DNA of 64,000 nucleotides from the human T2T-CHM13v2.0 reference genome, Homo sapiens: the NCBI RefSeq assembly GCF_009914755.1, contig NC_060936.1; one strand, written 5' to 3'. The translations under genes and the position numbers were made by a program. Shown in pieces: positions 11,965 to 40,363 of the stretch. The notes under the pieces are model-generated. The model did not search any database and was not told the DNA's origin. It saw only the letters and a list, made by a program, of their open reading frames with translations. Within the stretch, counting starts at the first letter, position 1. Every line of letters starts with the position of its first letter.

Positions 11965-12950
<986 letters not shown>

Positions 12951-22077: not shown

Positions 22078-22268
22078 CTGTAACTTTTCAATAATATTTC
22101 TGTAATCCCAAGCAGGCCCTCCAAGAGCTTCCTTAAAGCGTGGCCCAGAGCGAGCTGATAGTCTCCAACCCATTGCTGCTCTCTGCACCATATTTGAATG
22201 GCTCTTCATGAAAAGAGTATTAACTTGGCTGTCCAAATCCACTGGAATGGCAATTCCACGATTTTTTG
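22078..22268 (-). CDS. ITPR2: ITPR2 coding exon, 191 nt, phase 1/0 ([16 protein letters not shown]...YRNIIEKLQ)
   Basis: Acceptor tttttcag|CA, donor CAG|gtacat; overlaps ORF 22057..22242. Confidence 0.97.
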
Positions 22269-23023: not shown

Positions 23024-23245
23024 CTGAACAATGAGAACACTTGGACACAGGAAGGGGAACATCACACACCAGGGCCTGTTGAGGGGTGGGGGAAGGGGGG
23101 GAGGGATAGCATTAGGAGATATACCTAATGTAAATGACAAGTTAATGGGTGCAGCACACCAACATGGCACATGTATACATATGTAACAAACCTGCACGTT
23201 GTGCACATGTACCCTAGAACTTAAAGTATAATTAAAAAAAAAAAG
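23024..23245 (+). mobile_element. 5'-truncated L1PA 3' end (~220 bp)
   Basis: Near-consensus GAACAATGAGAACACTTGGACACAGG...GTACCCTAGAACTTAAAGTATAA + A tail; flanks AAGAATAACA / AAGAAATAACA. Confidence 0.95.
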
Positions 23246-23605
23246 AAATAACACAAAACATGAAGAAAAACTTGTATAGCAAAAAAAAAAGACAAAGGTA
23301 AGATACAAAGGATATATTTTTCTATATTTTATCCAAATTAAATCAATGACAACGGATTAAAAAAAATAATAACAGCTGAAGAGCTGGGAAGCTAAGGCCC
23401 TCCTCCCTCTGATTAGCATAGACATAGCAGTTGGCAGAAGCAGTTTTTACCTGGAGGACAAAGTCAGAGAAATGAAGAAATGTTCTCTCAAGAAAGTAGA
23501 ATACCTGACTGGACAGAATGCCAAATGCAGGTGTTAGAACTTGATAGAGAAGCAAAATGGAGCTTGAAGTAATGGCAGAGACCATCAAGTAAGAGGTAAA
23601 ACGTG

Positions 23606-23881
23606 GGCTGGGTGTGTTGGCTCACGCCTGTAATCCCAGCACTTTGGGAGGCCGAGGCAGGCGGATCACAAGGTCAGGAGATCGAGACCATCCTGGCCAA
23701 CATGGTGAAACCCCATCTCTACTAAAAATACGAAAACTAGCTGGGTGTGGTGGTGCATGCCTGTAATCCCAGCTACTCAGGAAGCTGAGGCAGGAGAATC
23801 GCTTGAACCCAGTAGGCAGAGGTTGCACACCACTGCACTGCAGCCTGGTGAGAGAACTAGACTCCATCTAAAAAAAAAAAA
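23606..23881 (+). mobile_element. AluSc-like with small right-arm deletion
   Basis: GGATCACAAGGTCAGGAGATCGAGACCATCCTGGCC; GTGAGCCGAGATCG segment missing. Confidence 0.92.
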
Positions 23882-24289
23882 GATAGAATGTGGGGAGAGA
23901 GAAGAGGCAGCACCAGCAGAGAGAGGAAATATATTAAATTCTCCAACTCCTGCGCAAAGCCCTCCTTACTTAACATTTACTGGTGTTCCCAGTCTGCCTC
24001 TGCTATACACACACATGCACATATGCATGCACGCACACAAACACAAACACAGCCTAAAGGAAAGCCTGAGTATCATTTGGTCAGCCTTTGGCCTCTCATA
24101 CAGAATTCCAGGTCAGCCCTGTCATTTATACAAGAATTCTAGGAAGGAAACAGGCCTTTAAAACTGCAGTGGAAACCTATGCCAGTCATTACGGACTTTC
24201 CTAATTACGAACACACCACCTAGGATCACAAGGAAAACCAATACCATTAAGAATAACCAATCCTAGTGAAAACAGGGATGACTCAAGGA

Positions 24290-25760
24290 AAAGCAAGAAA
24301 TATTTAAATAATCCTAATTATTGTCCTCAGAGAATTTGAGTATATACTGCATCCAAAAAATTAGAAAATCAGAAAGAAGAATGACATCTTAGAAATTAAA
24401 ATGTCCTTGCATACATAAACATGTGAAAAATTGGCTGAAAAATAACTGATAGAAACACAATTGGTAATCTGGAAAGGAAGTCAAGGAATCTTCTAAAAAT
24501 TAAGCATAAAAGATCAAAAAGCAGAATAAAACAGAGAGACTGTGAAATAAAGAGGGTAAACCCAGGAATTTAAATATCTAACAAATATAAGTTCCAGAAA
24601 GAAATAGCAGATACAATGTGAGAGAAGAAATTATTAAGAAAACAATATAAGACAACTTCCTTGAGCTTAAGACACATGTACATCTCCAAATTAAAAAGGT
24701 CCACAATATGTTAAACAGGATTAAGTAAGCATATTGGCCGTATTCTGGTAGAATTTTAGAATGCTGTTTTGGGTTGAACTGCATCCCCAAAAAGTATATG
24801 TTGAAGTATTAATCATCACTCCCCCTGAATGTGACCTTATTTGGAAATAGGGTCTTTGCAGATGTAATCACGTTAAGTTGAGGTCATACTGAATCATGGT
24901 GGGCCCCAATCCAATTCAACTGGTGTCCTTATAAGAAGGGAAGGAGAGACACAGAGAAATACCTGAGGGACACACACGATGTGAAGATGGAGGAAGAGAA
25001 TGGATTTATGCAGCTGCAAGCCAAAGAATGCCAAAGATTGTCAGCAAACCTCAGAAGCTAAGAGAAAGGCATGGAACGAATTCTTCCCTGGAGCCTTCAG
25101 AGAGAGCATGGTACTGATGAACCCTTGATTCCAGACTCCTAGTCTCCAAATTGTGAGACACTAAAATTTCTGTTGTTTTAAGCTACACAGTTATGCTAAT
25201 TTATGGCCAGCTGTAGAAAAATATACAAATGTCAATAGTATGGAGAAAATATCAAGTACTTCCAGAGAGAAAAGATGATTCCTAAAAAGAGTCTGACTAG
25301 CATCAGACTTATCATCATCAGCATTGAATGCTAAAAGATCCAATACCTTTATAGATGAAAAATTTTGAAACACGGACTTTATGTCCATCTAAACTAAAAA
25401 TCAAATGTAATTCCCAAACAAAAACATTTCAAAATACGTAAAGGCTCAGAAATTCTTCAATGAACCCCCTATGAAAAAATTACTCTAAAAAAAGAGCAAA
25501 TAATTTTTACATGTCCACATGGATATGAGAAACTATGGCAACTAAGTATGAATCTGAAGAAGAAAATTAAGTTAGAAACAAATGAAAAAAGATCCATCAG
25601 CTATTTCCATGGTTAGGAAATTCTCTTCTACTTGGAAAAGTTTTAATATCATAGTGCTACATTTTTTGTCCTAAATGGTTATAGCAGAACTATAAAGATC
25701 ATATTTAAAGTTATAATGATAGTCCCCAGAAGGCTTACTTTAAATGAATGAAAATAGGAA
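24290..25760 (+). mobile_element. ancient L1M ORF1-region remnant, interrupted by MLT1C
   Basis: A-rich text resembling L1 ORF1 (ATATAAGTTCCAGAAAG...; CTAGCATCAGACTTATCATCA...). Confidence 0.55.
24765..25227 (+). mobile_element. MaLR LTR, MLT1C-like, with 5-bp TSD
   Basis: TG...CA termini; GAATGTGACCTTATTTGGAAATAGGGTCTTTGCAGATGTAAT; TSD AATGC (24760-64) / AATGT (25228-32). Confidence 0.9.
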
Positions 25761-25786
25761 GGAAGGGATAAAAAAAAATTGGATGA

Positions 25787-25800
25787 ATAGATAGACAGAT

Positions 25801-25866
<66 letters not shown>

Positions 25867-25876
25867 TAGATAGATA
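25787..25876. repeat. (GATA)n(GACA)n compound tetranucleotide STR
   Basis: Direct reading. Confidence 0.97.
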
Positions 25877-25990
25877 ATCTGGCTTGCTTCATATAATGAA
25901 AGGAAAGCAAATAGTAGATAATATTACCAGCTGGTGGAAATTCTCTGAAGCTTAAAGATACTCAAAAACTTGTTTGAAAATAGACAATTT

Positions 25991-26135
25991 GCTGGATGCA
26001 ATGGTAGCCTCAGCTATTCAGGAGGCTGAGTCAGGTGGATCACTTGAGTCCAGGAGTTTGAGGTTGTAGTACACTGTGATGCGAATAGCCACTGCATCTA
26101 GCCTAGGCAACACAGCAAAACCCTGTCTCTAAAAA
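25991..26135 (+). mobile_element. Fossil Alu monomer (FAM-like)
   Basis: Single 7SL-derived arm retaining GAATAGCCACTGCA, which dimeric Alu arms lack. Confidence 0.75.
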
Positions 26136-26960
26136 GGAAAGAAAAGAAGAGAGGAGAGGAGAGTAGAGAGGAGAGGAGAGGAGAGGGGAGGGGAGGAGAG
26201 GAGAGGAGAGGGGAGGGGAGGAGAGGAGAGGGGAGGGGAGGAGAGGAGAGGGGAGGGGAGGAGAGGAGAGGGGAGGAGAGGAGAGGGGAGGAGAGGAGAG
26301 GGGAGGAGAGGAGAGGGGAGGAGAGGAGAGGGGAGGGGAGGGGAGGGGAGGGGAGAAGGAGAGGTGAAGAAGAGGAGAAGGAAAGGAGGAGAGGAAAGGA
26401 GAAGGAGAGGAGATGGAGAGGAGAAGGAGAGGAAAGGAGAAGGAGAGGAGATGGAGAGGAGAAGGTGAGGAAAGGAGAAGGAGAGGAGGAGAGGGAGAGG
26501 AGGAGAGGAAAGGAGAAGGAGAGGAAAGAGGAGAGGGGAGAGGAGAGGGAGAGGGAGATGAGAGTGAGAGGAGGAGAGGAGAGGAGAAGAAGGAGGAGGA
26601 AAGAGGAGAGGTGAGAGGAGAGGGAGAGGAGAAGGAGAGGAGAGGAGAAGGGAGGAGAGGAGAGGGAGAGGGAAAAGAAGAGTGAGAGGAGAGGGAGAGG
26701 AGAAGGAGAAGAGGAAGAGGAAAGAGAAGGAGAGGAGAGGAGAGGCAGAGGGAGAGGAGAAGGAAAGGAGAAGAGAAGGAGAAGGAGAGGTAAGAGGAGA
26801 AGGAGAGGAAAGAGGGGAGGAGGAGAGGAGAGGAGGAGGAGGGAGAGGAGGGAGAGGAGGGAGAGGAGGAAGAGGAGGAAGAGGAGGAGGAGAGGAAAGA
26901 AGAGAGGAGAAGGATAAGGAGGAGAGGAGAGGAAAAGGAAAGGAAAAAGAAAGGAAGAAA
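26131..26960. repeat. ~830-bp polypurine (GGAGA/GGGGA/GGAGAA)n low-complexity tract
   Basis: Almost exclusively A/G on plus, only isolated pyrimidines. Confidence 0.98.
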
Positions 26961-28301
26961 GAAAATAGATAATTTTCACTAGCCACACCAAAAACATGTA
27001 CTAATGTAGACAAAAACTCACTCTGAAGTTTTATAGAAATAATAACAGCTATAAGGCAACCTTAAACAATCAATTTCACCACTGCTTAAATTTCCTTAGT
27101 AAATGTTTTCCTAATATTCATGATACGCTTCCCTTTCCCAAAGCATGCAATATCTCTGTTTATGTCTTTCACACACAGCAGTGCAACTGCACTTCTGTCT
27201 CATCTGAAGGACAGATGGCCTCAACTCTGCCAAACAGCACATAGTTTTATAAATACTTAATCCTGCACCATGATCAAATCCTGGCAAGATTTTCATCCTT
27301 TTCTGGCTGCTTCACACATAAACTGGGTTTGCTCTAAACATTCAAAAATCAAACAGAAGACAATACTGCTTCTATGTTATTTTCTAAGCAACGAAAATAA
27401 AATGTTTCTCAAAACATGTTACAAACAAGTTTCCACTGACATTTAAACAAATTGGGGAGGAGATTGGGATTTATCTGCCCTTTAGGAATCAGGTACATTA
27501 GGTGAAATTGACCATCAAATAAGTGTTGCTGCTATGACTATGACTTACACAAAGAAGTGCTCAATGAATATTTTTCTAATGACACCAGTGAAAATTTAGT
27601 TCAATGGCAGCACCTCTGTTATTAACAATGCAGCCTTTTTATTAGTGACTTCAGGGAAATCTCATCCACCTCCAGAATCTCTTGTAAGCTGCTGATGGAA
27701 CACATTCTTCTATAGCCAGCACCATGGACAAACCAGGCTGGGGAGACTCCACGATCCCAAACTCTGTTGAAAGGTTTTTTTGTTTCCCTCAAACCATCCC
27801 ATTTCGATTGATATTATCTAGTCTCCTGTCTTCACATGAACTGTACAATGAAAATTAGCAAGGTAAAATATACTACTTTCCACAACTGTAGGTAAACTTT
27901 GAACAGAGCTAAATGACAATTTTTAGGCAATAATAGAAAATTAACTATGCAATTGAGAAAAAGATTTTTTGAGTCAAAATCAGTCTGCTTTGTAGACAAA
28001 GTTTTTTCAAACAATTGTAAAAACACAAGTATTTCTAAAGATATGGTCGGAAATAAATTCACTGCACTGTCCAAATAGTATAAATACTAATCCAAAACCA
28101 AAATTAACAATGCCAATTTAGCTGTCCATTGTTTAAAAATTAAAGCAGAAAAAACAAAAAAGAAAATTATGTCTAAAAAATGAAAACATTAATTTATCAT
28201 TTCACTTACAAGGACATTAATAAATAGAACAATATTTTTCAAATGCAATCAAAAACACAATCCAAAGTTAGCTTACTTTTACTAAGCTAGAAAAATTCTG
28301 G

Positions 28302-28336
28302 TATATATATATATTATATATATATATTATATATAT

Positions 28337-28367
<31 letters not shown>

Positions 28368-28368
28368 A
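28302..28368. repeat. interrupted (TA)n
   Basis: Direct reading. Confidence 0.93.
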
Positions 28369-29289
28369 AATGTCAAAATGTGAACTAGAATGTATTCTTG
28401 GGATTAGCAGTTATTCTCTGCCCCATCTGTCTCTCAATAAGGAAGAGCTAATAAATTTACTACAGTTAGCCATTCTTCTGGCCTATAGCATTAACTCCAA
28501 CTATGTACTTTAATACAAAGGGTCACTTTAAAGTTTAAAATATTTTTTAAAATACTTGTTCCTAGTTCACTTCTAAGTTGGAATGCAATTGAGATACACC
28601 TTGTTAAGGATACACTGTCAGCAAGTAAGTACATGGATCCCTTAAAAAACTAATAAGAGAGAGGATGGGTTGTTATCAATGCATTTATCTTTTGTAGAGC
28701 TCTGCCTAGAGATAACAGTTCTCTAAAATAGGCTATCTTTATTCACAATTTTTTTTATTTTTAGGCAACTGTCTAATTAGGCTTATAAACCTCGGAAGTT
28801 CTCTGGATATGACAAGTCTTTGCAGTGATTTTAAGATGTAATCAAAATCTATTTCTAATTATTATTATTAAATATTGCTTATTATATAAAAAAATTTTAA
28901 TTAGATGGAATTACTGATGGTATCTGCCAGACCAAAATCTCTGAGAATACAAACAATGCAGTGATAGGTGCCATGGAGAAAAATGCTTAGCTAGATAAAC
29001 TGACAGGTAGGGGGGAAAGGCAACAGAAAGTGTAAGCATTAATTAGAAAACCTGGTTGGTTGTCAAGTTCTACTGTATAGCCCAGGTGGAGCACAGGAAA
29101 GTGGAATGGCAGGGACAGAGAATGGCACATTTCCTGTATCATGTCAAAGGACCCAGAATAAATCTGTACTGAAGCACCAGTATACATAAACAGGAAGAAC
29201 ATCAAATATATTAAATTCATCTTTCCTGTTTGGCACTCAAATTATACTGAGTGAATCCTCAATTAATCCTTACATTGAATAATGCACGT

Positions 29290-30380
29290 AATTTTTATGG
29301 GTTATTGAAGAACTAGTATTGGCACACTTGATTAGTCATCTGGAAAAAATAAAGTTGGTTCCACACCTTATACCTCACAACTAAATGTATCCCAGATAGC
29401 TCACAATTTTAAACAGCAACTCCCAAAACACAAAGAGACAAACCAAAACTATGAAAATTCTCCATGAGAATTCAAAAAACATCTTAGACTGATAAGGGCT
29501 ATTCCGAAGATGAAAGAAAACCTTAAAAGCCTAAAAGAAAATTTAAAAATATTGCATGCCAAAAAATAAATAAAAGTTCAAATGACAAATGGCAAGAAAA
29601 AAAATATGGTGGGCACGGTGGTTCATACCTGTAATCCCAACAATTAGGGAGGTCAAGGCGGGTGGATTGATTGAGCCCAGAAATTTGAGACCACCCTGGG
29701 TAACATGGTAAAAACTCTTTATACAAAAAAATACAAAAATTAGCCGGGTGTGGCAGCACGTGCCTATAGTCCCAGCTACTCGGGAGACTGAGATGGGAGG
29801 ATTACTTGAACCCAGGGGAGTCGGGGCTGTAGCCAGCCATGTTCATGCCACTGCACTCCACCCTGGGCGACAGAGCAAGACTCTGTCTCAAAAAAAAAAA
29901 AAATCAGAAAAGAAAAAAAGAGAAAAAAATTGTTACTTATAGGCAAAGAGATCATTTTCTTAAAAATGGTTACACAAATTATTAAGAAAAAAACCTATTA
30001 GGAGAAATAAGGAAAGCACAAGAAGTGACAGTTCACAGAAAAGGAAATATCAATCATTTAATGTTTTTTTCCTCACTCATAAAAAAGAGAAACACACATT
30101 AAAACTACAAAAATATTTTTACTTACAAGGTTGGCAAAAATCTAACGCACTGAAGAAGAAAGACATTCTCCTACATTGCTGGTGGAGTGTAAATTGAACA
30201 ATCTCTACAGAGGGCAGCATCCGTCAGAAGTGAAATAACCCAAAAAGTCTATTCCTAGGTATTTACCTTATTCACATGTGCAAAATGATTGAAAACAACA
30301 TAAATATCCAATAGTGAGGTTAAATCTATTTTAATAGTCATGAAATGGGATGTTATGCAGCCAAAGAGAAGAATGAGATA
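29290..30380 (+). mobile_element. ancient L1M ORF2 remnant, interrupted by Alu
   Basis: TGGAAAAAATAAAGTTGG...CACCTTATACC; ACATTGCTGGTGGAGTGTAAATTG. Confidence 0.65.
29608..29925 (+). mobile_element. AluJ-like
   Basis: Full dimer with TTGAGCCCAG (J-type) and A-rich tail. Confidence 0.92.
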
Positions 30381-31949
30381 CTCACCCATTTATTTGTATT
30401 CATTTATTTTATTCATGTGATAAATATACATTGAGTACCTACTGTGCTATAGACAAGGTCAGGCTCTAGAATTTTATAACAGGTAGGGGACTTACTTTTA
30501 TTCTGCTTTGTTATTTCTGTACATGTTATATCTACCCCTAATATACTGGAAATTAATCGAGGGTAGAAAACATGGTTTGACATATTGCATTTCCCCCAAA
30601 ATTAGAATAATGCATTTCAGATAATGAGGAATCATTATAAATCAGTTGAGTTAATAAATATGTGAAAAATTGTATGATATTGTCCTATTTTATAACTTAC
30701 TCAGATTTAATTTTTTTAGTAATAATTGAGTTTTTAAAAACTGTGATCACAGGGATATATGATGTCAAGCTCCTTCTAAAATCAACCACAACACCTTAGA
30801 TAGATTAAAATAGATATAATGTTTATTTAATAGAGACTGAATTTCTCTTCTGAAAGAGTTAATATTTTCTACATGTACAATTTTTTGGGACAAGTTGGCT
30901 TGTAAATTGATGTTTATTATTCAAAACATTTGTAAAAGATATTTTATGGAATTTCCACTTGGAAAATAGATTATGTTGCCAACAAAGTACCCAGCATTAA
31001 TTCCCCCAAATCATTTGAAGATTATGAAACACATGGAACAAAATTCTTTTTTAAGAGGAATAATATGGAAGTAATTCTTGGATACTTTTTCTCAAAGTCC
31101 TATACTTCTACCATGTGCTATTTTACTTCAAATAAACGAATCAACTGAGGAACAGCAATTGACCAAGTGCATTAAAAAAATTCGCATAGCCTTAATGCCC
31201 TGAACGTTTCTCAAATCTCTGTGAACACCATGGTGTACATTTACTGCAGAGCTCTCCATCCTTACTTGCTCCCACCATCACCCTTAATTTAGCTCATTGA
31301 GGGCAGAGGATGATAAAGATGTTTATACCTTACATTCCAGTTAGGCCCCCTGCATGTAATGACTTTGCTGGGGAATTTGCATTTATGATCACTTAAAAGC
31401 TTGTATCTTCTTATCAATTTCAAGTCCTACATCTTAGAAGACAGCGTAACAATGGAGGTAAATATCAGTAATTTCTACATATAAAAAGACATTCAAAAGC
31501 ACTTTAGCCTTTAAAAGTTTAAAACATTTTATCAGAAAAATCTAACATGATATACATGGTATATTCACAATTGATCGTGGCTTCAGTTTTAAAAACTTCT
31601 GAAGTTTTATCAGAAAAATTCGACATGACATAGTAAACTCACAGAGGATCATAGCCTCAAAACATTAATGGCAATAGATAAAGTTACAGCAAACTTCTGG
31701 AGCAATCAAGGGAAAGGAGGAAAAGCAATAGATGATAGGAAGTATTCTTTTTCTATAAAGGACTTTCCCAAAACCCTTATAACTCAGTTCACTAGCTCCT
31801 CACCTTCTTTTTACTTTATTTGAAAACTCTATATATTTGTCTCATGTATAGCTTAAATTACCACCTTGATCCACAATGCACACGGTATAAAACAGGTAAC
31901 ACATCTGCTTAAACTGATTTGTGATAGCAGAGCAGAGATTTGTGATAGG

Positions 31950-32140
31950 AGAGGTTAATGCCGCTAGCACGTCAGTGCAGAAGGGATTCAGATCCTGGCT
32001 CAGGCCCTGCCTACCTGTGTGACCTTCAGAAAGCTGCCAAACCCTGATAACGTCATTTCCCCATCTATAAAATGGAGCTAAGAATTATGTCCACATCATA
32101 GATTTCACTAGATTTTCCAACACTCAGTAAATGCTTGCTG
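31950..32140 (+). mobile_element. MIR
   Basis: CTGTGTGACCTT...TTTCCCCATCTATAAAATGGAG. Confidence 0.7.
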
Positions 32141-32880
32141 CTCTCAGCAAAGCAAACACTGACTTAGAGAGTGCTTCTGCTGATTTTTACTACCTTTTGT
32201 ATTCCATGTACAACTAAGAAAAAGAATGAAGTATTTTTGATGCTAGATGAGTTGAGCTACTGTACTTGAGAGCAATTTACAAATCATAAAATGTTATATA
32301 AATATGACTATAATTGATCTTTACATTGACAGCAATGTGTTTACCAACTTGGAAATGCACTGAAAATCTGCCTTATAAACAAAGTACTCTCTTGACTTTG
32401 TTGCATTTTAAATATGCATATCCCTTGTTCTGTTTAATATTAAAAATTCTTGCATATTTGAATTCTGCTAAACTTTAGTGCCTCTGTGTGTTTTTAAAGA
32501 ATTGCTGAAACACAAAAATAATTTTGCACCTGAGTTGTAAAATGTCAGACAGATCCCCACCCAACAAAGTTTTATGGGAGGCCATTGTTTTGATCTAGCC
32601 TCCTGCACTAGGCCCCAGCAGACCAGGCCAGAATGAAGTCATTCATGCTAAGTGCCACATAATCAAGCAGAACTCTGAAATGGGCCTTATCCAAGAAAAC
32701 AGGAGATTCATGGCAATCCATTAAAAGGGGCCTAGTTTGGCACGATGTTTTTTAACCCTTTAAGGAAGGGAACTTTGAAAAGGCCAATTTGCTTCTTGTT
32801 CCTTGTTTCTACTTTCTTCAGCCCTTTTCTGTCTAAAAAGCAACTGAGGTGCTGCTTGATTCTAGAATGGAATCGTTAAG

Positions 32881-32953
32881 TAGACTGAAGCCAGTTGACT
32901 AGGGTATTTAGCTGTTGGCTAAATTTTCGTGGGGTTGGATCCCACCAATCTAG
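32881..32953 (+). pseudogene. mitochondrial tRNA-Asn (GTT) pseudogene within NUMT
   Basis: TAGACTGAAGCCAGTTGACTAGGG...CCCACCAATCTAG; anticodon GTT at 32914-32916; T-stem GTGGG/CCCAC. Confidence 0.93.
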
Positions 32954-32954
32954 G

Positions 32955-33023
32955 AAGGAGTTAGCTCAATTAAAGTGATTGATTTGCATTCAGTTGATGT
33001 AAGATAAGATCTTGCAGTCCTTA
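32955..33023 (+). pseudogene. mitochondrial tRNA-Ala (TGC) pseudogene within NUMT
   Basis: AAGGAGTTAGCTCAATTAAAGTG...TTGCAGTCCTTA; anticodon TGC at 32985-32987. Confidence 0.93.
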
Positions 33024-33034
33024 TTTTTGGTTAA

Positions 33035-33102
33035 CAGAAATTAAGTATGGTTTCCTTACTTGGGGCTTTGAAGGTTCTTGGTCTGACTTAACCTAAATTT
33101 CT
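33035..33102 (-). pseudogene. mitochondrial tRNA-Trp (TCA) pseudogene within NUMT
   Basis: AGAAATTTAGGTTAA...ATACTTAATTTCTG on minus; acceptor stem AGAAATT/AATTTCT intact; anticodon TCA at 33069-33071. Confidence 0.93.
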
Positions 33103-33162
33103 AGTTTCATGTTGAAAGTATTGGTGAGAGTAGTAGAAACAGGGTTGACATGGTAATAGTGG
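33103..33162 (-). pseudogene. MT-ND2 3' terminal fragment within NUMT
   Basis: Immediately 5' of tRNA-Trp; mitochondrial-code reading MSTLFLLLSPMLSTWN then T(AG) overlapping the tRNA, resembling mammalian ND2 C-termini. Confidence 0.8.
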
Positions 33163-33332
33163 CAAATAAAAGGCAATTAGATCTTTAAATAAAATTTGTT
33201 GTAATTTTGTCTTTTGACTCCAGTAAGCCAAATGTCCATAGTTCTAGTTTATATGTCAGGACTTTCTAAGACAGGACTTTTGGGGCAACATGATAAAGCA
33301 TAAAATTCGTACTCAAAAAAACTTGGATTTCA

Positions 33333-33333
33333 T

Positions 33334-33372
<39 letters not shown>

Positions 33373-33583
33373 TTTTAGAAACAGGGTCTGGCTCTGTCAC
33401 CCAGGCTGGAGTGTAGTGGTGCGAACATAGCTCATTGAAGCTGCGAACTCCTGGGCAGTAAAGATCTCCCACTTAAGCTCCTAAGTAGCTAGGACTACAG
33501 GTATGCACCACCATGCCCAGCTAATTTTGTTTTTGGCCTCCCAAAGTGCTGGGATTGTAGGCATGAGCTATCCTGCCTGGCTG
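33333..33583 (-). mobile_element. AluJ-like with (TAAA)n tail and internal left-arm deletion, inserted in a MIR
   Basis: Perfect 14-bp TSD AAACTTGGATTTCA at 33319-33332 and 33584-33597. Confidence 0.93.
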
Positions 33584-33689
33584 AAACTTGGATTTCAAAC
33601 CCAACTCAAATACTTATTAATTGGACAAGTTACTTAACCTTTCTAAGCCTAACTTTCACTCTGTGAAACTCCCAGCCTATGGATTATTG

Positions 33690-34450
33690 TCAGTCAACAA
33701 ACACTTATTAATCTGCTTAGTCAAGAACAAACACTTTCAGGCTCCAGTGGTGAAGAAAGGAAAGTTCCTCTTTTTATCATTTACATGCTAAAGGGGGGTG
33801 GGGCAGACAACAAAGAAGCAATAAATAAACAAACAAGCTGCTTTCAAATAGTGACAAGAGCTAAGAGGAAAATGAAATGGTCTAAGATGATAAGGAGCAG
33901 GAAGAAGCTGAGACACTGCATGGGGGGTGTTCTGGAATACTTCACTGAGCCCTTATATTTTGAACTGAGATCTGACTGACAGAGGAAACCAGCAAGTGAC
34001 ATTCTCCAGGAAGAGGATCCAAACAGAGGGAATGGCATATGCAAATGTCCTCAGGTGAGGAAATGCCTGAAGCAGATGAGACTCCGAAAGAAGGTCAGTG
34101 TGGATGGAGCAGAGTTGGAGGAGATGGAGGGTGATGGGAAAAGGTCAGACTAGACCAGCTCAGATGAGGAAGGGCTTTTGTAAGTGCAGTGGGGAGTTGT
34201 CAGTGGGTGAGTGACATGCTCAGGTTTACATGTTAAGATCCTCTAACAACTGTGCAGGCAATGGATTGCAGGGGCACATTTAGTAAGGACACTCTTCTGT
34301 CATCCATGTCCGATGATGGTAGATTTGGACAAGGGTGACACAAGAGAAAGAAAAAGAGAGATTCTGGAAATGGGTCTGACAGAATTTGCTGCTGTGTTTA
34401 ATGAGAGTAAACAAAAGGGAAGAATCCACTGTGACCCCTAAGGTTTTAAA
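33690..34450 (-). mobile_element. L2
   Basis: CAACAAACACTTATT...; TTTGAACTGAGATCTGA...; GAGGGAATGGCATATGCAAA. Confidence 0.7.
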
Positions 34451-34931
34451 AGAGTACTAACTGCAAAAGAGTTACTTTTTCAAGTAGCACAGAAATCTGC
34501 CTCTTGCAGCTGCCATATATGAGTTATAATTCTGTCTTTGGGAACCTGTTAAAAAAAAAAAAAAACAGCCTATTCTAACCTTCAAAAGTTTAAAAATAAT
34601 TATTGTGTTCCTCCTCAGATTTCTTTTCTTTGTCTAAATATTTCAAATGTTTTCAATCACTAAAGTGAGGTGATTTTAGATCCCTTGACGACTGAGGGTT
34701 CACTTCTGAATGTGTTCCACTTTGGTTCTCTGTTTCTATGACCAGCGTCCAAAAACAACCAAAAAGCATACAGTCTAATCATCATTAAGCAGAATCTGCT
34801 TTTCACCTTCATCCTAGGTAACAACTTTCTATTAATTTCTTTTTGACAGCTGCTTTATAGTTGCCCATCAAAATCTAATATGGGAGACAAGAATAGTACT
34901 TGTGATGATGTAAGTTAGAATGAAATTAGAC

Positions 34932-35349
34932 TGTATCAGGCTGTTCTTGTGTTGCTAAAAAGAAATACCTGGCGCTGGATAATTGACAAAGAAAAGAGTT
35001 TTAACTGACTCGTCGTTCTGCGGGCCATACAAGCATGGCCTTTGCACCTATTCAGCTTCTGGTGAGGCCTCAGGAAGCTTCCACTCGTGGTGGAAGGCAC
35101 AGGGAGAGCAGACGGGGTCATGTGGCGAGGGCAGGAGCAAGGAGTCGGGGCAAGTCCCAAACTTTTAAACAACCAGATCTCACGGGAACTCACCAAGCAA
35201 GAACTCACTTATCACCGAGGGGATGGTGCTAGACCATTCATGACAGATCTGTCCCCACGATCCAGCCACCTCCCACCAGACCCCACCTCCAACGTCGGAA
35301 TCCCATTTCCACATGAGATCTGGAGGGGACAGACGTCTAAACCATATCA
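34932..35349 (-). mobile_element. MaLR LTR, MSTA-like, with 5-bp TSD
   Basis: TTGCTAAAAAGAAATACCTG...CTTCTGGTGAGGCCTCAGGAAGCTT...AAACCATATCA; TSD TAGAC / CAGAC. Confidence 0.88.
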
Positions 35350-37132
35350 CAGACACTAAGAAAGGCATACGTGGACGAATGGGGTGAGTTCAGATTTGGA
35401 TGTAGGAGCCAAGGGTGGCTATGGAGGAATTTGAGCAGAAAAAAAGTCGAGTAATGGGAAAGATGCTGAGGAGTGGCAATGGTGGAAACTCGAGAAAGCT
35501 AGTGTGAGCCATGTGGGGGCATCCTAGATGTAACAGTGAGGAATCTAGCCTTAGGTTGTTAGGCAAAGGGATGTTGCTGAAGGTTGGGGATGTAGTGTTG
35601 ATTTTTTAAACCGACAAAGAATTTCACTTCAGAAAGATTACTCTGGTATCAGGCTTATCTAAATAAGGAAAGACAGAAGGAGATAACATTAATTTCCTGC
35701 AGTGGTCCAAGAAGAAAGTAATGAAGGGTTAATGAGGCCACGATGCGGGGAAGGGGAGGGGAAGAACAAATGCAGAAGGAGAGTGGGGACAGAATTTCCA
35801 GAGCCTTAACTGTTCAGATGGAAGGGACCAACAAGGAAAACGAAGAAGGCATGCCTTCTCACAAAGAGAAAACTGAGATTGATATGGAAACCTCACTCTT
35901 CACCTATCTTGATTATACCCTTCGATATAATTATTTTTTAGACTTATCACACATGTCTTTATAGCATACGAAAAGGAACTAAAATTTCCTCTTAAATTAT
36001 AATGCTTTGGCCAGTATGGACATGGTAGGAAATGAAGTCTTATTACTTAGAAATAAAAGATGTATTTAGACTAATATAGTTTCAGTAACTATATTAAGCC
36101 CCCAAATCTCTGCAATTCTATGCATGAACTGATTGGATTACACAATGAGTATCACTGAAGTCAGAATTCAGAAAGCAGTCACAACATGGAATTTCACTTG
36201 TGGCTCCAAGTTCTTTTTCTCTCAATGTATACATGTGATCAACAACATGCCCGCTACACCCTGTGTAGGGCCAACTGGTATTTCCCTGCCTTGCGTTTGC
36301 TAAATATTGAGGGGTAGAGGAGGAGGAACAAGAGGAGAGAGAAAGAAGGAAAAAGAGAAGAGACTACCTTAATATGTGAAATACTGAAAGAAAAATACTT
36401 AGCAGCTAAGACAATGTATTCCTATGTAAAAATTAACACCATCATATTTCTTTGCTTTTCCTTTGATTTTATCTTTTATTGGTTAGTGTGTTTCCTAACC
36501 GATTTGGCCCAAATAAAAATACATTTACTGCTGTTTCATTATAACTTGAAAGTAATATATTAGCAGAAATTACATAAAAGTGTGAAGAAGAAAACCAGAT
36601 CCACACATCATCCATCCACCACTCAGAGATAATCAATATTAAAATTTTATTTATCTCTCTGAACACTTTCTTCTGTGCATCCTTTTAAAATAAAAATTAC
36701 TTGCTCTTTCTTTATTTCTCCTTCTTTATTTTTGTGTGTCCTTCTTTATTCTTGATATGATACATATTGTGACCACTTCCTCTTCCTGTACCTCTTCACT
36801 TCCCCTCCCACACCATTCAGTTCTAAAATCTTTAGGAGGAGCGCAGCGCAGTAAGTGTCCGTGCTGGGTAAGATGTGCAAAAGAGCCATGGCGCTCCAGA
36901 ATGTGGGGACCCAAAAGGGAGTGGAAGGTCTATGTAGGAGGACTGCCTGCAGAGAATCAGAACTCAAGTGGAGTGAGGAGGGTGTCCATGCGAGGAGCAG
37001 CCTGGGTTGGGGGTTACAGTCAAGGAGTGTATCCATGCAAAGGAGTGGCCCAGGATAGAGAGGTAGAGGCCAAGCCAGGTGAAGGGGATCCCCTGCAGAG
37101 CAGCAGCCTGACCTAGCACCAGCCCAAGGGAG

Positions 37133-37538
37133 GTGCTATGGCTTTATTGTGTCCCTCGAAGTTCGTGTGTTAGAAACTTAATCCTCAATAAAACAGAGGT
37201 GAGAGGTGGGACTTTTAGGAGGACAGAGCCCTCATAAATGAATTGATGCTGTTATGAGTGGATTAATTATCCTGGGAGTGGGTTTCTAATAAAAATATGA
37301 GTTTAGCCCCCTTCCTTTCACTCTCTCTCTCTCTCTTTTCCTCTCTTGCCTTCCACCTTCTGCCTTCCCCCATGGGATGATGCAGCAAGATGGCCCTCAC
37401 CAGATGCACGCCTCTCCATCCTGGACTTCCCAGCCTCCAGAACTGTTAGAAATAAATCTCTATTCTTGATAAATTACTCAGTCACAGGTAATCTGTTATA
37501 GCAGTGCAAAACAGAGTAAGCACAAAACAGACTAAGAC
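37133..37538 (+). mobile_element. MaLR LTR, MST-family (MSTC/D-like)
   Basis: TGCTATGG...GAAACTTAATCC...GGACTTCCCAGCCTCCAGAACTG...AAACAGACTAAGAC. Confidence 0.8.
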
Positions 37539-39049
37539 CAGAGATGAGGGCAATGTCCCTCCATAGGAGGGTAGCAGAGGCCAAGCTGCAAAAGGACAGC
37601 ATCCTTGTGGGGTGTGGCCCACCAAGGGGGATCCCAGCTCATGTGGGCTCTGAGGTGAGGAGGGTATGTGCAAAGAATGGTTCCAGGTGTGGAAACATTA
37701 AAGTTATTAGTTTATCTGAGGAGAACTGGCATCTTTATCAGTTGAATTTTCCAATCAAGAAATTATGTTTCTCTATTTATTAAAATATTTTATATCCTTC
37801 AATATAGTAAAATTTTATTCTCTCATATTGTTTACCCTTAGATGTTTAATGTTTTTGTTGCTATTGATAATGACGTCTTTTTCATATTACATTCTCTTTT
37901 GTGGTATACAGAAAGTCTGTTAAGTATAATACTCATTTATAATTAATTACTTAAGTCAACTGTATTATTAGTCTATTAGTTCCACTAATTTTCAATTAAG
38001 CCTCTTGGGTTATAACTGCCTTTCATTGTATTCAAATCAAAATCGGGGCTGTCACTAAATTTTGTTAATATAAAATAACCTAGGTCAAATTGCAAACAGG
38101 GAGAAATGACTAAAAACATTTTAAATGGTCATTAATTAGTTAAGTCATTTATTCATTTCTCACATATTTGTTGAGGTATGCTATAACCCTGGCCAAATTG
38201 CATAACCTATAAAACTCTCTGTTTTCTTAACTATCAAATGTAAATAATTTAAAACCTATCTAAGGATTAAATGAGATAATGCATGTAAATGGCTGGCATT
38301 GCACATGGTAAGTACTCAACAAATGTTAACAGTGATGAAGACTGATAATGAAATACGCTATAAACTGCCTTTCCCAATGTCTGCAGAGCCACCATTAGTT
38401 GAAAGGATGATCAAGCTCTTCCTTTTTTGTTCAGTACAGCCAAGTGTGCATTTCTTCTCTCCTCTCCCCTCCACCATTGGGGGAATGGCCCTAATTAACT
38501 TATTAACTTTCTCTCTCTCTCTCTCTCTCGACACCCCACCCCCCCATACACAGAGAAGAATCTATGAGAAACTCTTCTAGAATCTACTCACCTTCCTTTA
38601 GCTGTAATTCCCTTGCCTTCAATTTCATTTGTAATTTCTGAAGCCTTGAATATTGACACACTTCAAACAAAATTGGAAAACTACAAGACCCTCAAAAAGT
38701 CCTATGTCATATGAAGGTATTAGCAAGTCAGGCCACTTAATAGACAAGACAATTCCATAATGAAATCTGAGGTAACAATTAACTAAAATCCTCTAAAATC
38801 TGACTGAGCCATATTAAAGTTCCATATGCAATAATATTAAATTTAAGATTTTTAATATAATGATTATATCCTCCTCCCAAAAAGTATGCAACATTCAGAA
38901 TCATTTGCTGATGGCTGCTCTTCAGTTTAACAGAAAACATACTGGTTTTCTTAAGTTGTAAATTGGGAAGCTGCTTGTGTTGCCCATTAGCCAAAAACCT
39001 AATTTCTTCAAGAAATGTAAAAATAAGTAAAACTCAAACTATGACTTAC

Positions 39050-39170
39050 CCACTTCAGCCAAAGTTCTGATACAGGATTCCACTGAGGCTTTCTGCGCTG
39101 GGTTTGGCCAGGTGCAATTGTAAATTCTGAAGGCAGATTGCAGTAGCTGAATAAAAACTGGCTGATGTGT
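39050..39170 (-). CDS. ITPR2: ITPR2 coding exon, 121 nt, phase 0/1 ([12 protein letters not shown]...CIRTLAEV+G)
   Basis: Manual translation; acceptor ggttttag|ACA, donor TGG|gtaagt; phase 1 completed by next exon (G|CA = Ala). Confidence 0.97.
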
Positions 39171-40363
39171 CTAAAACCAGAAAGAAGGTAGGCAAAAAGA
39201 GATGCTAAACCATTAACAGCCCTGATGTAGCATCTATGCATTCTCAGAAAGGTTCATCAAAATAAAATAAAATACAATCTTTCAAGTTTCAGTGCTAGTT
39301 AATAAATATCTCATTCATGAAACATTTATTAGATACTCTCTTCATGAGAGGCAAGATGCTACACACTATAGGGGATTGATTATTTTCATTTTAATTATAT
39401 TCTTAATCAGAAAAAAATATGCCATTTCCTGAAGCCAATGACATGAATATCTTTTATAATCCATGGTTTATTCCCATGAGCAAATAAGCAGGTGTTTCTG
39501 GGTTGGTTGGTTTGTTTTGGTTTCATATGATGGGCAAGTAGAGGAGACAACCATTTTGAACTACAGAAACAATTTCCTATGGTTCTATCTAATAGTTTAA
39601 AATTTTTCCCTAAAGAAAGCATAATTGAAATGATATTTTTAGAAGAGTTATACACAATCACTGTAGAATATTTGTGGACCACAGAAATGAAAATCATCAA
39701 GAATGCTACAACATAGAGATATAGTATCAATATTTGAAGATATTTACTCCCTGAGTTTTTTTATGCATGTATGTTTATATATTCTGTACACAAACAAATT
39801 TGGATAATACTATAATGGAATTCAGTGGCCTAATATTACTTCATGTTTATTTTCTTGGTCATCAATTTTCCCTTTAAAACATGATTTTTAATTACTATAT
39901 AATAAACCATCCTACAGATATATCATAATTTATTTAGCTTTTCCTCCTTTTAAGGATGTTTAATTGATTAAATTTTTAGTATTACAAATATTTGAATTAG
40001 AAGTTTTAGTACATAAATCTTTGTTAATTCTTTTAGGATAAGTTACTAAAGTAAAACTTTAGGGGCAAAATGTCTATCATTTAAAGAATTAATTGTGCAG
40101 TTATTTCAACACCTGGCAATCAACATACAGATATGAAGTTCTTAGTCTGCTTAGAGAAAAAGGAAAAATAATTCAATTTAAAGATGAGGTCTCTTTATTT
40201 AAAGTAAAGTTTGGTAAACTCAGAAAGAGGCATAATAGTAAATAATATAAGAGAAGAATAAACATCTGAAGTGTAGGAGATGACTTCCTGACCAGAAAAA
40301 ATTTCTCCTACTCAAATAAGAGAAACTCTTTGCAACAGAATGCTTTGCAATTGTTTAACTTAC

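What the first reader, a model, noticed from the sequence alone, without database searches (positions are those of the whole stretch)
32878..33162. Ancient mitochondrial insertion (ND2 end, tRNA-Trp/Ala/Asn) nested inside an ERV LTR in an ITPR2 intron
Seen: three mitochondrial-type tRNA bodies with intact anticodons (TCA, TGC, GTT) in W-A-N order, with Trp on the opposite strand to Ala/Asn, preceded by an ND2-like tail. The host LTR text breaks at ...TCTAGAATGGAATCG and resumes at GCAAATAAAAG, with no obvious TSD. Known: that order and strandedness is the vertebrate WANCY cluster, and NUMTs integrate by end-joining without TSDs. Inference: it is far from modern human mtDNA (tRNA-Asn roughly 75-80% identical to my recollection of the human gene). 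The Asn acceptor 3' strand CAATCTA, T-stem GTGGG/CCCAC and ND2 tail LSPMLS look ancestral. It would therefore be a fossil of an early primate mitochondrial genome whose maximum age is bounded by the LTR. tRNA-Trp is sense to the ITPR2 pre-mRNA and could in principle be cleaved out. It may already be in NUMT catalogues.
Basis: partly seen in the sequence, partly recalled or inferred. Interest (0 to 1): 0.8.

Follow-up and report, generated by a model that had tools for sequence, protein, structure and literature searches.

The report
Old mitochondrial DNA insert inside LTR
A 285-base scrap of ancient mitochondrial DNA (three tRNA genes and the end of ND2) sits inside a solitary retroviral LTR in an ITPR2 intron; it is real and old, but it is an ordinary, most likely inert, genomic fossil.

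Summary
Window 32878-33162 is a nuclear mitochondrial insert (NUMT). It carries tRNA-Asn and tRNA-Ala on the + strand, and tRNA-Trp plus the last 20 ND2 codons on the - strand, which is the mitochondrial order.

It splits a solitary LTR (32563-32868 and 33163-33218). Other copies of that LTR read straight through the insertion point. There is no target-site duplication, only 7-9 filler bases and a possible 2-base overlap, which fits end-joining.

The LTR family is real. Its 3' end has 508 genome matches against 52 for the control. It has TG..CA ends and lies about 14% from its family node, roughly 65-100 Myr. I could not name it: there is no repeat library here and inner genes were off limits. 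One copy suggests a tRNA-Arg primer site.

The NUMT is older than 22 of 25 paralogous copies and younger than two, on chr21 and chr8. Its nuclear decay is about 6-9%, so roughly 30-70 Myr. "Early primate" is possible but not shown.

The Trp cloverleaf is damaged, and print reports no processing of such intronic copies. This is a known kind of element and probably already catalogued. Low interest.

The parts
32563..32868 (+). Left arm of a solitary LTR (U3 side). Its first few bases, the TG end seen in other copies, are decayed or missing here.
   Evidence: The genome search with 32530-32877 gave 693 candidates, of which 40 were scored at 70-86% identity, all starting at 32563-32574. All 20 fetched copies align to it. 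Two copies, L045 and L055, align up to 32868. No second copy lies in the window.
32869..32877 (.). Junction bases between the LTR text and the mitochondrial text: 7-9 nt of filler. The first two may still be LTR.
   Evidence: LTR copies L045 and L055 have only 2 nt here before the right-arm text resumes. The paralogous NUMTs read a different, G-rich sequence here.
32878..33162 (-). The NUMT: mitochondrial DNA running from the foot of the light-strand origin, through tRNA-Asn, tRNA-Ala and tRNA-Trp, to the last 60 nt of ND2. The mitochondrial reference strand is the window's - strand.
   Evidence: Of 31 loci with hits, 26 alignments start at 32878. Alignments end at 33102-33169, mostly 33145-33162. 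The last two bases (GG) could belong to either partner.
32881..32953 (+). mt-tRNA-Asn(GTT)-like, 73 nt. One of its 20 stem pairs is broken.
   Evidence: ARAGORN -mtmam; stem count. It is 77-89% identical to 25 paralogs.
32955..33023 (+). mt-tRNA-Ala(TGC)-like, 69 nt. One of its 20 stem pairs is broken.
   Evidence: ARAGORN -mtmam; Rfam RF00005 at 36.2 bits; stem count. It is 75-85% identical to paralogs.
33035..33102 (-). mt-tRNA-Trp(TCA)-like, 68 nt, sense to ITPR2. Four of its 21 stem pairs are broken.
   Evidence: ARAGORN -mtmam; stem count. The minimum-energy fold lacks the anticodon arm, z -0.67.
33103..33162 (-). 3' end of an ND2 pseudogene: 19-20 codons plus the T of the incomplete stop, with no stop in the mitochondrial code.
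   Evidence: Translation. It aligns to the ends of RefSeq MT-ND2 pseudogenes. It is 68% identical to the chr8 copy L031 and 43-58% identical to 23 of the other 24 rows; the exception is L004 at 30%, whose tail is an Alu rather than ND2.
33163..33218 (+). Right arm of the same LTR, with two AATAAA signals (33165-33170 and 33188-33193) and the family's 3' end.
   Evidence: The genome search gave 297 candidates, of which 40 were scored, mostly 85-94% identical over the first 53-65 of 138 query bases (the window itself scored 100% over all 138). 19 of 20 fetched copies carry it downstream of the left arm. The family end is visible.

Best explanation
A fragment of mitochondrial DNA was captured at a double-strand break by end-joining. 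The fragment runs from ND2's last 60 nt through tRNA-Trp, tRNA-Ala and tRNA-Asn, and ends 3 nt beyond tRNA-Asn at the foot of the light-strand origin. The break lay inside an already resident solitary LTR, in what is now the 16.8-kb ITPR2 intron between the exons at 22078-22268 and 39050-39170.

Shown: the mitochondrial origin, the boundaries, the nesting in one LTR, the absence of a target-site duplication, and its place in time relative to other NUMT copies.

Inferred: the end-joining mechanism, the absolute age (about 30-70 Myr; LTR about 65-100 Myr), and that it has since drifted as neutral intronic DNA with no tRNA or splicing role.
For: Mitochondrial origin and gene order.

Nesting: the left and right flanks belong to one multi-copy family, in one orientation, in 19 of 20 copies. 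Copies L045 and L055 read ...TCTAGAAT + 2 nt + CAAATAAAAG..., whereas the window has 9 nt plus the 285-nt insert at that point.

Junction: no duplication beyond a possible GG; 7-9 nt of filler.

Relative age (233 of 285 columns scored):
- At 12 columns the window, L022 and L031 share one base against at least 18 of the 22 younger rows.
- At 7 columns (plus 3 more where all three old copies differ from the cluster and only L022 and L031 agree with each other) L022 and L031 agree with each other against the window and the cluster.
- Only 3 columns (window + L022) and 1-2 columns (window + L031) conflict with this order.

The ND2 tail of the closest relative, L031, finds the ND2 chains 5lc5_N and 5ldw_N and no human-type chain. 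The tail of the youngest-looking copy, L025, finds the ND2 chains 5xtc_i and 9cwt_i at E 2.5e-5. The species of these entries (bovine, human) are recalled, not given by the tool.

Nuclear decay:
- 6 of 61 stem pairs are broken; 5 of them are paired in at least 21 of the 25 other rows.
- There are 13 private changes at 143 tRNA columns where L022, L031 and the cluster agree.

The host LTR branch of 0.147 is larger, as nesting requires.

No function: Trp fold z -0.67. The insert lies 5.9 kb from one splice site and 10.6 kb from the other (gene table). In print, no processed intronic copies were seen, and the splicing effect was strongest 200 bp from the 5' splice site (for the processing result, for the position dependence; passages of PMC7722341).
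Against: No real mitochondrial genome, human or other, could be aligned, so the placement rests on NUMT copies used as time samples.

The three isolated copies have long branches, which can attract each other in a distance tree.

The stem count is biased in the window's favour, because the structure was taken from the window's own sequence.

The Poisson range for 6 breaks is wide, about 2 to 13.

The substitution rates used to convert decay into time are recalled values.

Presence or absence in other primates was not testable. No expression data were available, so 'inert' is an inference.
Confidence: 0.85

Rival explanations
1. The segment is not a primary insertion. It is a piece copied from another, larger NUMT elsewhere in the genome by a secondary duplication or transposition.
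For: Many NUMTs of this mitochondrial region are duplicated. L018 and L024 differ by only 4%. A 115-120-nt piece recurs on about ten pericentromeric or acrocentric sites.
Against: No place in the visible genome is more than 83% identical to it. Its ends are unique: every paralog reads on beyond 32878 into different sequence. It has 18 private differences.
Confidence: 0.04
2. It is a NUMT of ordinary age, like the 22-copy cluster, that merely looks ancient because it decayed faster in the nucleus.
For: Its broken-stem count (6 of 61) lies within the range of the cluster rows (2-10).
Against: Random decay would not recreate the same base as L022 and L031 at 12 columns, 7 of them in the 60-nt ND2 tail. 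Decay would also break about two thirds of changed stem positions, yet 3-8 stem pairs per comparison differ while staying paired. The ND2 tail is 68% identical to L031 and 43-58% identical to 23 of the other 24 rows (L004, at 30%, is an Alu there).
Confidence: 0.05
3. The insert has been co-opted. It could act as an intronic structured-RNA element that influences ITPR2 splicing (a 'nimtRNA' cluster), as a source of a processed tRNA-like RNA, or as part of the neighbouring enhancer.
For: Intronic mitochondrial tRNA copies raised splicing in reporters, in either orientation (passages of PMC7722341). The antisense of Asn, as it would appear in the pre-mRNA, folds well (z -3.2, 0 of 200 shuffles as good). 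RefSeq lists a 'NANOG hESC enhancer' at 33503-34004, 340 nt away.
Against: It lies 5.9 and 10.6 kb from the splice sites, whereas the published effect was strongest at 200 bp. Trp and antisense Ala fold no better than shuffles. Stems have decayed. No processed intronic copies were seen in print. ITPR2 does not occur in that paper's main text. The enhancer interval does not overlap the insert.
Confidence: 0.05

Closest known systems
Nuclear mitochondrial DNA segments (NUMTs) of the human reference, as catalogued by BLAST against mtDNA (e.g. PMC10671835, PMC3467031)
   Same: Mitochondrial sequence with mitochondrial gene order sits in a chromosome, flanked by non-mitochondrial DNA, with no target-site duplication and with filler or microhomology at the junctions. 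Its size (285 nt) is near the published median of 176-212 nt (Table 1 of PMC10671835, passage). Its identity is well above the published cut-offs (identity >63%, E <1e-4).
   Different: It lies inside a retrotransposon. One paper reports that arrangement for only 10 of 557 non-duplicated NUMTs (PMC3467031, passage). It is also among the three most isolated of 26 copies of this mitochondrial region.
[quoted passage not shown]
   Same: Mitochondrial tRNA copies in an intron of a protein-coding gene, flanked by mitochondrial sequence, in the N-A-W part of the YCNAW cluster that the paper used. One member (Trp) lies in the opposite orientation.
   Different: The cluster is incomplete (no Cys, no Tyr) and far from both splice sites. 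The Trp stem is damaged. ITPR2 is not named in the main text of PMC7722341 (0 occurrences). No paper in the library holds both 'NUMT' and 'ITPR2'. The lookalike study accepted up to 25 mismatches, so these three copies could be in its table, which I could not see.
The old NUMT copies beside MTND2P1 (chr21:34.27 Mb, L022) and MTND2P10 (chr8:104.2 Mb, L031)
   Same: They cover the same mitochondrial region and are similarly isolated (25-34% from all other copies). They share 12 states with the window's copy against the younger cluster.
   Different: They share a further 7-10 states with each other that the window's copy lacks. They have more broken stems (11 and 12 of 61 against 6). They are much longer inserts that include ND2 and CO1 pseudogenes.
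Solitary LTRs of old endogenous retrovirus or LTR-retrotransposon families (family unnamed here)
   Same: Other copies have TG...CA ends (for example L042 and L045 at the 5' end, L043 and L053 at the 3' end). Copies are about 400-435 bp long. AATAAA lies 30-50 nt from the 3' end. There are hundreds of dispersed copies. Interior sequence is occasionally adjacent: 3 of 60 downstream flanks share it, and 1 of 20 upstream flanks shows a purine tract.
   Different: This copy lacks the TG start, and I could recognise no target-site duplication for it. It is about 40 nt shorter than usual between 32842 and the insertion point (371 against 378-447 nt). No family name could be given.

Membership tests
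NUMT | Significant sequence homology to mitochondrial DNA | tested here: met
   Tested indirectly but strongly. There are 38 other genomic places with E down to 8e-59. Those checked lie between RefSeq MT-CO1 and MT-ND2 pseudogenes. A direct alignment to chrM was not possible, because the reference offered here has 24 contigs and no chrM.
NUMT | Collinear with the mitochondrial gene order and strand pattern (ND2, Trp on one strand; Ala, Asn on the other) | tested here: met
   ARAGORN -mtmam coordinates and strands; ND2 reading frame ending in a lone T that abuts Trp. The vertebrate order itself is established knowledge.
NUMT | Embedded in nuclear, non-mitochondrial sequence with sharp homology boundaries | tested here: met
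   No alignment extends left of 32878, and 26 of 31 start exactly there. Alignments end at 33102-33169. The flanks are LTR sequence.
NUMT | Junctions of the end-joining type: no target-site duplication, short microhomology or filler | tested here: met
   There are 7-9 filler bases on the left, a possible 2-nt GG overlap on the right, and no loss of LTR bases judged against L045 and L055. The mechanism itself is inferred.
NUMT | Listed in a published human NUMT catalogue | not testable with these tools
   The lists are in supplementary files, which are closed. The published cut-offs (identity >63%, E <1e-4, length >28 bp) should capture a 285-nt segment of this identity.
Solitary LTR of an endogenous retrovirus / LTR retrotransposon | Member of a dispersed multi-copy family with fixed ends | tested here: met
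   693 candidates for the left arm and 297 for the right arm. A 21-nt 3'-end motif has 508 matches with up to 2 mismatches, against 52 for the reversed control. Alignments of 20 copies all start at 32563-32574 and end at 33209-33222, except L052, which ends at 33247.
Solitary LTR of an endogenous retrovirus / LTR retrotransposon | TG...CA termini | tested here: inconclusive
   Present in many other copies. In the window's copy the 5' TG is not there, and the 3' end reads ...GAC followed by T, not A.
Solitary LTR of an endogenous retrovirus / LTR retrotransposon | 4-6-bp target-site duplication | tested here: inconclusive
   By eye, 4-5-nt repeats flank L044, L045 and L046 (3 of 20 copies). None is recognisable for the window's copy. 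No statistical test was made.
Solitary LTR of an endogenous retrovirus / LTR retrotransposon | Some copies joined to interior sequence through a tRNA primer-binding site or a polypurine tract | tested here: inconclusive
   3 of 60 downstream flanks (L059, L083, L100) share sequence. The TGG-initiated 18-mer of L083 fits the 3' end of a tRNA-Arg(CCG) gene at 16 of 18 positions with one gap. Its score of 12 compares with a maximum of 10 in the 57 other flanks. L059 and L100 are ambiguous. L043 has a purine-rich run just upstream.
Solitary LTR of an endogenous retrovirus / LTR retrotransposon | Match to a named Dfam/Repbase LTR family | not testable with these tools
   No repeat library is on hand. 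The chromosome table gives masked stretches without names and does not mask this LTR at all. Two papers consulted for primer sites gave no name. Naming from inner genes was barred, and I stopped there.
HERV-K (HML-2) / LTR5 | LTR5-type ends and young age | tested here: not met
   The family is about 400-435 bp long and about 14% from its node, and the one readable primer site points to tRNA-Arg. That LTR5 is about 1 kb long and only a few per cent diverged is recalled. No kin of that family was fetched.
nimtRNA (PMC7722341) | Mitochondrial tRNA homologue within an intron of a nuclear gene, flanked by mitochondrial sequence | tested here: met
   It lies in the ITPR2 intron 22269-39049 (gene table); tRNAs found. 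The tRNAs are flanked by each other and by the ND2 tail.
nimtRNA (PMC7722341) | Cloverleaf maintained despite base changes | tested here: inconclusive
   Asn has 19 of 20 pairs kept, Ala 19 of 20, Trp 17 of 21 with no anticodon arm. Compensatory double changes against other copies are few, 0-4 per comparison.
nimtRNA (PMC7722341) | Measurable effect on host splicing | not tested
   No expression or splicing data are on hand. The insert is 5.9 and 10.6 kb from the splice sites.
Functional nuclear tRNA gene | Recognised by general tRNA finders and models, with an intact cloverleaf | tested here: not met
   Default ARAGORN makes 0 calls. Rfam passes only Ala. Folds of the three sense strands are not better than shuffles (z -0.67, -1.31 and -1.04).

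The most novel reading that the evidence does not exclude
The insert is a snapshot of the mitochondrial genome from a stem-anthropoid or earlier primate ancestor. Its end at the foot of the light-strand origin would record a replication-linked break of the mitochondrial chromosome at that origin. Its still-folding cloverleaves (Asn in both orientations, Ala) would act as a structured intronic element in ITPR2 pre-mRNA.
Probability: 0.06. Interest if true: 0.35.

Novelty: already known. Interest (0 to 1): 0.15.

Why it matters
It matters little on its own. It is one more fixed NUMT, of a size and identity that standard catalogues should already hold.

It has modest value as a dated sample of an old mitochondrial tRNA/ND2 sequence on the human lineage, bracketed by a host LTR. 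It is also one of the less common NUMTs that lie inside a retrotransposon (10 of 557 in PMC3467031).

It matters practically as a source of mitochondrial-looking tRNA reads that map to chr12, and as an example of a NUMT that carries no RefSeq pseudogene label (and the gene table).

Tried and rejected
- Default ARAGORN on 31500-34500 found nothing; the mitochondrial mode was needed.
- An Rfam E-value scan of 32000-34000 gave only Ala, Alu/SRP-related hits and one weak chance hit.
- I looked for chrM in the reference. There are 24 contigs and none is chrM.
- I looked for a near-modern NUMT as a stand-in. I searched the genome with the most human-like copy, L025. The best other match was 87%, plus short pieces at 88-91%. 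The chr1 copy that I recall from GRCh38 is neither in the gene table nor among the hits. It may be absent or in a closed region.
- The ND2 tail of the window itself could not be sent to the protein tools. In the standard code it is 18 residues before a TGA, below the 20-residue minimum, and I did not type a script's translation. I used the tails of L025 and L031 by reference instead. L031's PDB hits are weak (E 0.7).
- I considered using search for homologous proteins to fetch primate ND2 proteins and dropped the idea. Stop-free pieces are too short for its length window.
- Four loci fetched next to MT pseudogenes were of no use for the alignment. L032, L034 and L035 gave no hit to the insert, and L033 gave only a 46-nt hit and a weak 109-nt hit.
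- Rows dropped before the alignment: the partial copies L026-L030 and L033, so 25 of 31 hitting loci were used.
- For the site patterns, L004 was set aside from the 'cluster' because its tail is an Alu, not ND2. 52 of 285 columns were unscored.
- A BLAST of 40 NUMT loci against the window gave 174 hits. All those outside 32800-33250 fall on the window's Alu copies, so there is no second mitochondrial piece within the reach of those loci.
- LTR naming led nowhere. There is no repeat library. The masked-repeat table does not cover the LTR. The two papers read for primer sites (passages) gave nothing that names it.
- The LTR copies dated are the 20 best of 40 scored out of 693 candidates. They are therefore biased towards resemblance to the window's copy.
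- Papers. I saw passages (find mode) of PMC7722341, PMC4189335, PMC10671835, PMC3467031, PMC10735291 and bioRxiv 10.1101/2024.12.11.627920. For all other titles I saw the search listing only.
- Recalled, from no call: the substitution rates (2.2e-9, 1.5e-9 and 1e-9 per site per year), the species of the PDB entries, the position of the light-strand origin next to tRNA-Asn, and the size and youth of LTR5.
Full report
WHAT IS THERE

The sequence at 32878-33162 carries three mitochondrial-type tRNA bodies, found by ARAGORN in its mammalian-mitochondrial mode:
- Asn(gtt) at 32881-32953 on the + strand
- Ala(tgc) at 32955-33023 on the + strand
- Trp(tca) at 33035-33102 on the - strand

The default bacterial mode finds none. 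Rfam's general tRNA model passes its threshold only for Ala (36.2 bits against 29).

A single call of the mitochondrial mode means little. It makes 8 further calls elsewhere in the 64-kb window. Three adjacent calls are not chance: of 300 shuffles of the 285 bases, 3 gave one call and none gave three.

On the - strand, the 60 bases after Trp read ...TITMSTLFLLLSPMLSTWN in the mitochondrial code, followed by a lone T that abuts tRNA-Trp. That is how ND2 ends in vertebrate mitochondria (the gene layout is established knowledge).

MITOCHONDRIAL ORIGIN AND BOUNDARIES

The reference offered here has 24 contigs and no chrM, so I used its other NUMTs.

A genome search with 32850-33190 found 38 other places at 73-83% identity, E down to 8e-59 (54 candidates, 39 scored). 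The ones I checked lie between RefSeq MT-CO1 and MT-ND2 pseudogenes, for example MTCO1P15/MTND2P26 on chr11 and MTND2P36/MTCO1P11 on chr9.

I fetched 34 such loci and ran a local BLAST, in which 31 gave hits. Of these, 26 alignments start exactly at 32878, one starts at 32879, and none starts further left. Most end at 33145-33162.

No second mitochondrial piece is in the window, within the reach of these loci. All other hits fall on Alu copies.

THE HOST ELEMENT: IS IT A REAL LTR, AND ARE THE FLANKS ONE ELEMENT?

The left flank (32563-32845) and the right flank (33163-33218) each belong to a large dispersed family, with 693 and 297 first-look candidates and 40 scored each.

I fetched the 20 best left-flank copies, limited to the LTR plus short flanks. 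All 20 align to the left arm. In 19 of 20 the right-arm sequence follows downstream in the same orientation.

Two copies (L045, L055) align right up to 32868. After only 2 bases they continue with the text that resumes at 33163 in the window. The two flanks are therefore one element, interrupted by the insert.

Other features of the family:
- Other copies begin with TG (for example ...tgtta|AACAAAG in L042 and L045) and end with ...TTTTGACA (L043, L053).
- Copies are mostly 400-435 bp between the aligned ends. The window's copy is 371 bp without the insert.
- Two AATAAA signals lie 30-50 nt from the 3' end.
- A 21-nt 3'-end motif has 508 genome matches with up to 2 mismatches, against 52 for the reversed control.
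- No second copy lies in the window, so this is a solitary LTR.
- It points opposite to ITPR2.

In the window's copy the 5' TG is gone, and I recognise no target-site duplication. Three of the 20 other copies show 4-5-nt flanking repeats by eye.

AGE AND NAME OF THE LTR

I made no consensus. From pairwise distances of 21 left arms (median K2P 0.281), a star-tree least-squares fit gives a mean branch of 0.142 and 0.147 for the window's copy.

With recalled rates of 2.2e-9 and 1.5e-9 per site per year, that is about 65 and 95 Myr. The copies are the ones most like the window's, which may bias the figure low.

I could not name the family. There is no repeat library here, the masked-repeat table does not even cover this LTR, and naming from inner genes was barred.

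As far as non-coding neighbours go, 3 of 60 sampled 3' ends (L059, L083, L100) are followed by shared interior sequence. In L083 a TGG-initiated 18-mer, 4 nt after the LTR, fits the 3' end of a tRNA-Arg(CCG) gene at 16 of 18 positions with one gap. Its score of 12 compares with a maximum of 10 in the 57 other flanks. L059 and L100 are ambiguous.

So the primer site is tentatively tRNA-Arg. That does not name the family. It is not the young LTR5 family, because its size, its age and this primer site are all different.

HOW THE INSERT GOT THERE

At the insertion point the intact copies read ...TCTAGAAT, 2 nt, CAAATAAAAG.... The window reads ...TCTAGAAT, 9 nt, then the 285-nt insert, then CAAATAAAAG....

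No LTR bases are missing. There is no duplication beyond a possible GG, and 7-9 bases are filler of unknown origin. That is the pattern expected from capture of a DNA fragment at a double-strand break by end-joining. The mechanism is inferred, and is the accepted view for NUMTs.

The mitochondrial fragment ends 3 nt beyond the 5' end of tRNA-Asn. Every paralog continues there into a G-rich sequence, which I take, from recalled knowledge of the mitochondrial map, to be the light-strand origin hairpin.

AGE OF THE INSERT

Against 25 paralogous copies aligned over the full 285 nt, the window's copy differs at 22-28% of positions. Most of the others differ from each other by 8-20%. Only L022 (chr21, beside MTND2P1), L031 (chr8, beside MTND2P10) and the Alu-truncated L004 are as isolated. 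A neighbour-joining tree puts the window's copy, L022 and L031 at the base.

Because long branches can attract, I counted site patterns over 233 scored columns:

| Pattern | Columns |
|---|---|
| Window, L022 and L031 share a base against at least 18 of 22 younger rows | 12 (7 of them in the ND2 tail) |
| L022 and L031 agree with each other against the window and the cluster | 7 |
| All three differ from the cluster, and only L022 = L031 | 3 |
| Conflicting: window + L022 | 3 |
| Conflicting: window + L031 | 1-2 |

The simplest order of the source mitochondrial genomes is L022/L031 first, then the window's copy, then the cluster.

Polarity comes from protein. The ND2 tail of L025 finds ND2 chains 5xtc_i and 9cwt_i at E 2.5e-5, with 21 of 29 residues identical. 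The tail of L031 finds only chains 5lc5_N, 9w2u_N and 5ldw_N, weakly (E 0.7). I recall the former as human and the latter as bovine; the tool gives no species. After the shared proline, the window's tail has the M-L of those latter chains, not the x-M-L of 5xtc_i and the cluster.

Decay since leaving the mitochondrion was estimated in two ways:
- **Broken stems.** 6 of 61 cloverleaf pairs are broken, and 5 of these are paired in at least 21 of the 25 other rows. If about two thirds of random changes break a pair, that is about 6-7% change. The Poisson range is wide, and the count is biased in the window's favour because the structure was taken from it.
- **Private changes.** There are 13 private differences at 143 tRNA columns where L022, L031 and the cluster agree, which is 9%.

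By a related count, the cluster rows show 1.7-7.4%, L022 13% and L031 17%.

Both figures are below the host LTR's 0.147, as nesting demands. They put the insert at roughly half to three quarters of the LTR's age, or about 30-70 Myr with the recalled rates.

'Early primate' is thus possible. A stem or early crown anthropoid date fits at least as well. Only primate genomes and mitochondrial genomes can settle it.

DOES IT DO ANYTHING?

Trp is sense to ITPR2. However, three of its five anticodon-stem pairs and one T-stem pair are broken. Its minimum-energy fold lacks the anticodon arm and is no better than shuffles (z -0.67).

Sense Asn and Ala fold at z -1.3 and -1.0. The antisense of Asn, which is what the pre-mRNA would hold, folds well (z -3.2). 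The antisense of Ala does not.

The paper that defined intronic mitochondrial tRNA copies ('nimtRNAs': 281 in introns of 76 genes) saw no processed tRNAs from introns. It found a reporter splicing effect that was strongest 200 bp from the 5' splice site (passages). This insert is 5.9 kb from the 5' splice site and 10.6 kb from the 3' splice site. ITPR2 is not in that paper's main text, and no paper in the library holds both 'NUMT' and 'ITPR2'.

I conclude that it is most likely inert. This is an inference, since no RNA or cross-species data were available.

COMPARISON WITH WHAT IS KNOWN, AND NOVELTY

This is an ordinary NUMT in kind. Published human catalogues use cut-offs (identity >63%, E <1e-4, length >28 bp; 863-958 NUMTs in T2T-CHM13) that should capture it. 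The lookalike study accepted up to 25 mismatches per tRNA.

Two features are slightly unusual:
- It lies inside a retrotransposon, reported for 10 of 557 NUMTs in one study.
- It is among the oldest three of 26 copies of this mitochondrial region.

RefSeq gives it no pseudogene label (gene table).

LIMITS

- No real mitochondrial genome and no other primate genome could be consulted.
- Rates and some identifications are recalled and are marked as such.
- The LTR remains unnamed.
- Supplements that may list this locus were closed.

Noticed in passing
window 33503-34004: RefSeq lists a 'NANOG hESC enhancer element' starting 340 nt after the insert. It partly overlaps the Alu next door and does not overlap the NUMT or the LTR.
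   Followed up: no
window 33323-33580: An Alu in - orientation (Rfam SRP-related hit at 33376-33521), with a (TTTA)n run at about 33335-33375. It lies about 110 nt beyond the LTR's 3' end and is the only stretch near the finding that the masked-repeat table marks (33323-33426).
   Followed up: partly
window 32878 (left end of the insert): The mitochondrial fragment ends 3 nt beyond tRNA-Asn. All 12 paralogs printed continue into a G-rich sequence at that point, which I recall as the light-strand replication origin hairpin. It may be a coincidence, or a trace of a break at that origin.
   Followed up: partly
L022 (chr21:34273798-34274440) and L031 (chr8:104215800-104216900): These two other NUMT copies of the same region look even older than the window's. 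They have 11 and 12 of 61 stem pairs broken and lie 25-34% from all other copies. In L031 the ND2 pseudogene is interrupted by an Alu-like stretch, and the RefSeq MTND2P10 label stops before it.
   Followed up: partly
L004 (chr7:70556266-70557485): This NUMT copy loses homology at about window position 33115. Its 'ND2 tail' is an Alu (30% identity there; Alu hits), so it was set aside from the site-pattern count.
   Followed up: partly
About ten pericentromeric or acrocentric places (e.g. chrY:11354421, chr22:9837256, chr21:7592967, chr20:30211340, chr14:5795549 and 2905817, chr4:49323568, chr1:127805648): A 115-120-nt piece covering tRNA-Asn and the start of tRNA-Ala recurs with the same span and the same 79% identity to the window's copy. 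It looks like one NUMT spread by segmental duplication.
   Followed up: no
whole reference (G000): No young copy of this mitochondrial segment is visible. The best match to the most human-like copy (L025, chr17:23.2 Mb) is 87%. The near-modern chr1 NUMT that I recall from GRCh38 is not in the gene table. It is either absent here or in a closed region.
   Followed up: partly
L043 (chr11:6190617-6191341); L059, L083, L100: A few copies of the LTR family still adjoin proviral interior. There is a purine-rich tract just upstream of L043's LTR, and shared sequence with a TGG-initiated primer-site-like 18-mer lies downstream of three LTR ends. The interiors were not fetched.
   Followed up: partly
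window 12931-12983, 16458-16520, 27957-28009, 34427-34493, 40015-40091, 53300-53364, 55937-55995, 60092-60156: Eight further 'mitochondrial tRNA' calls by ARAGORN -mtmam, scattered and single. None was hit by the NUMT loci, whose other hits all fall on Alus. I take them as the tool's background.
   Followed up: partly
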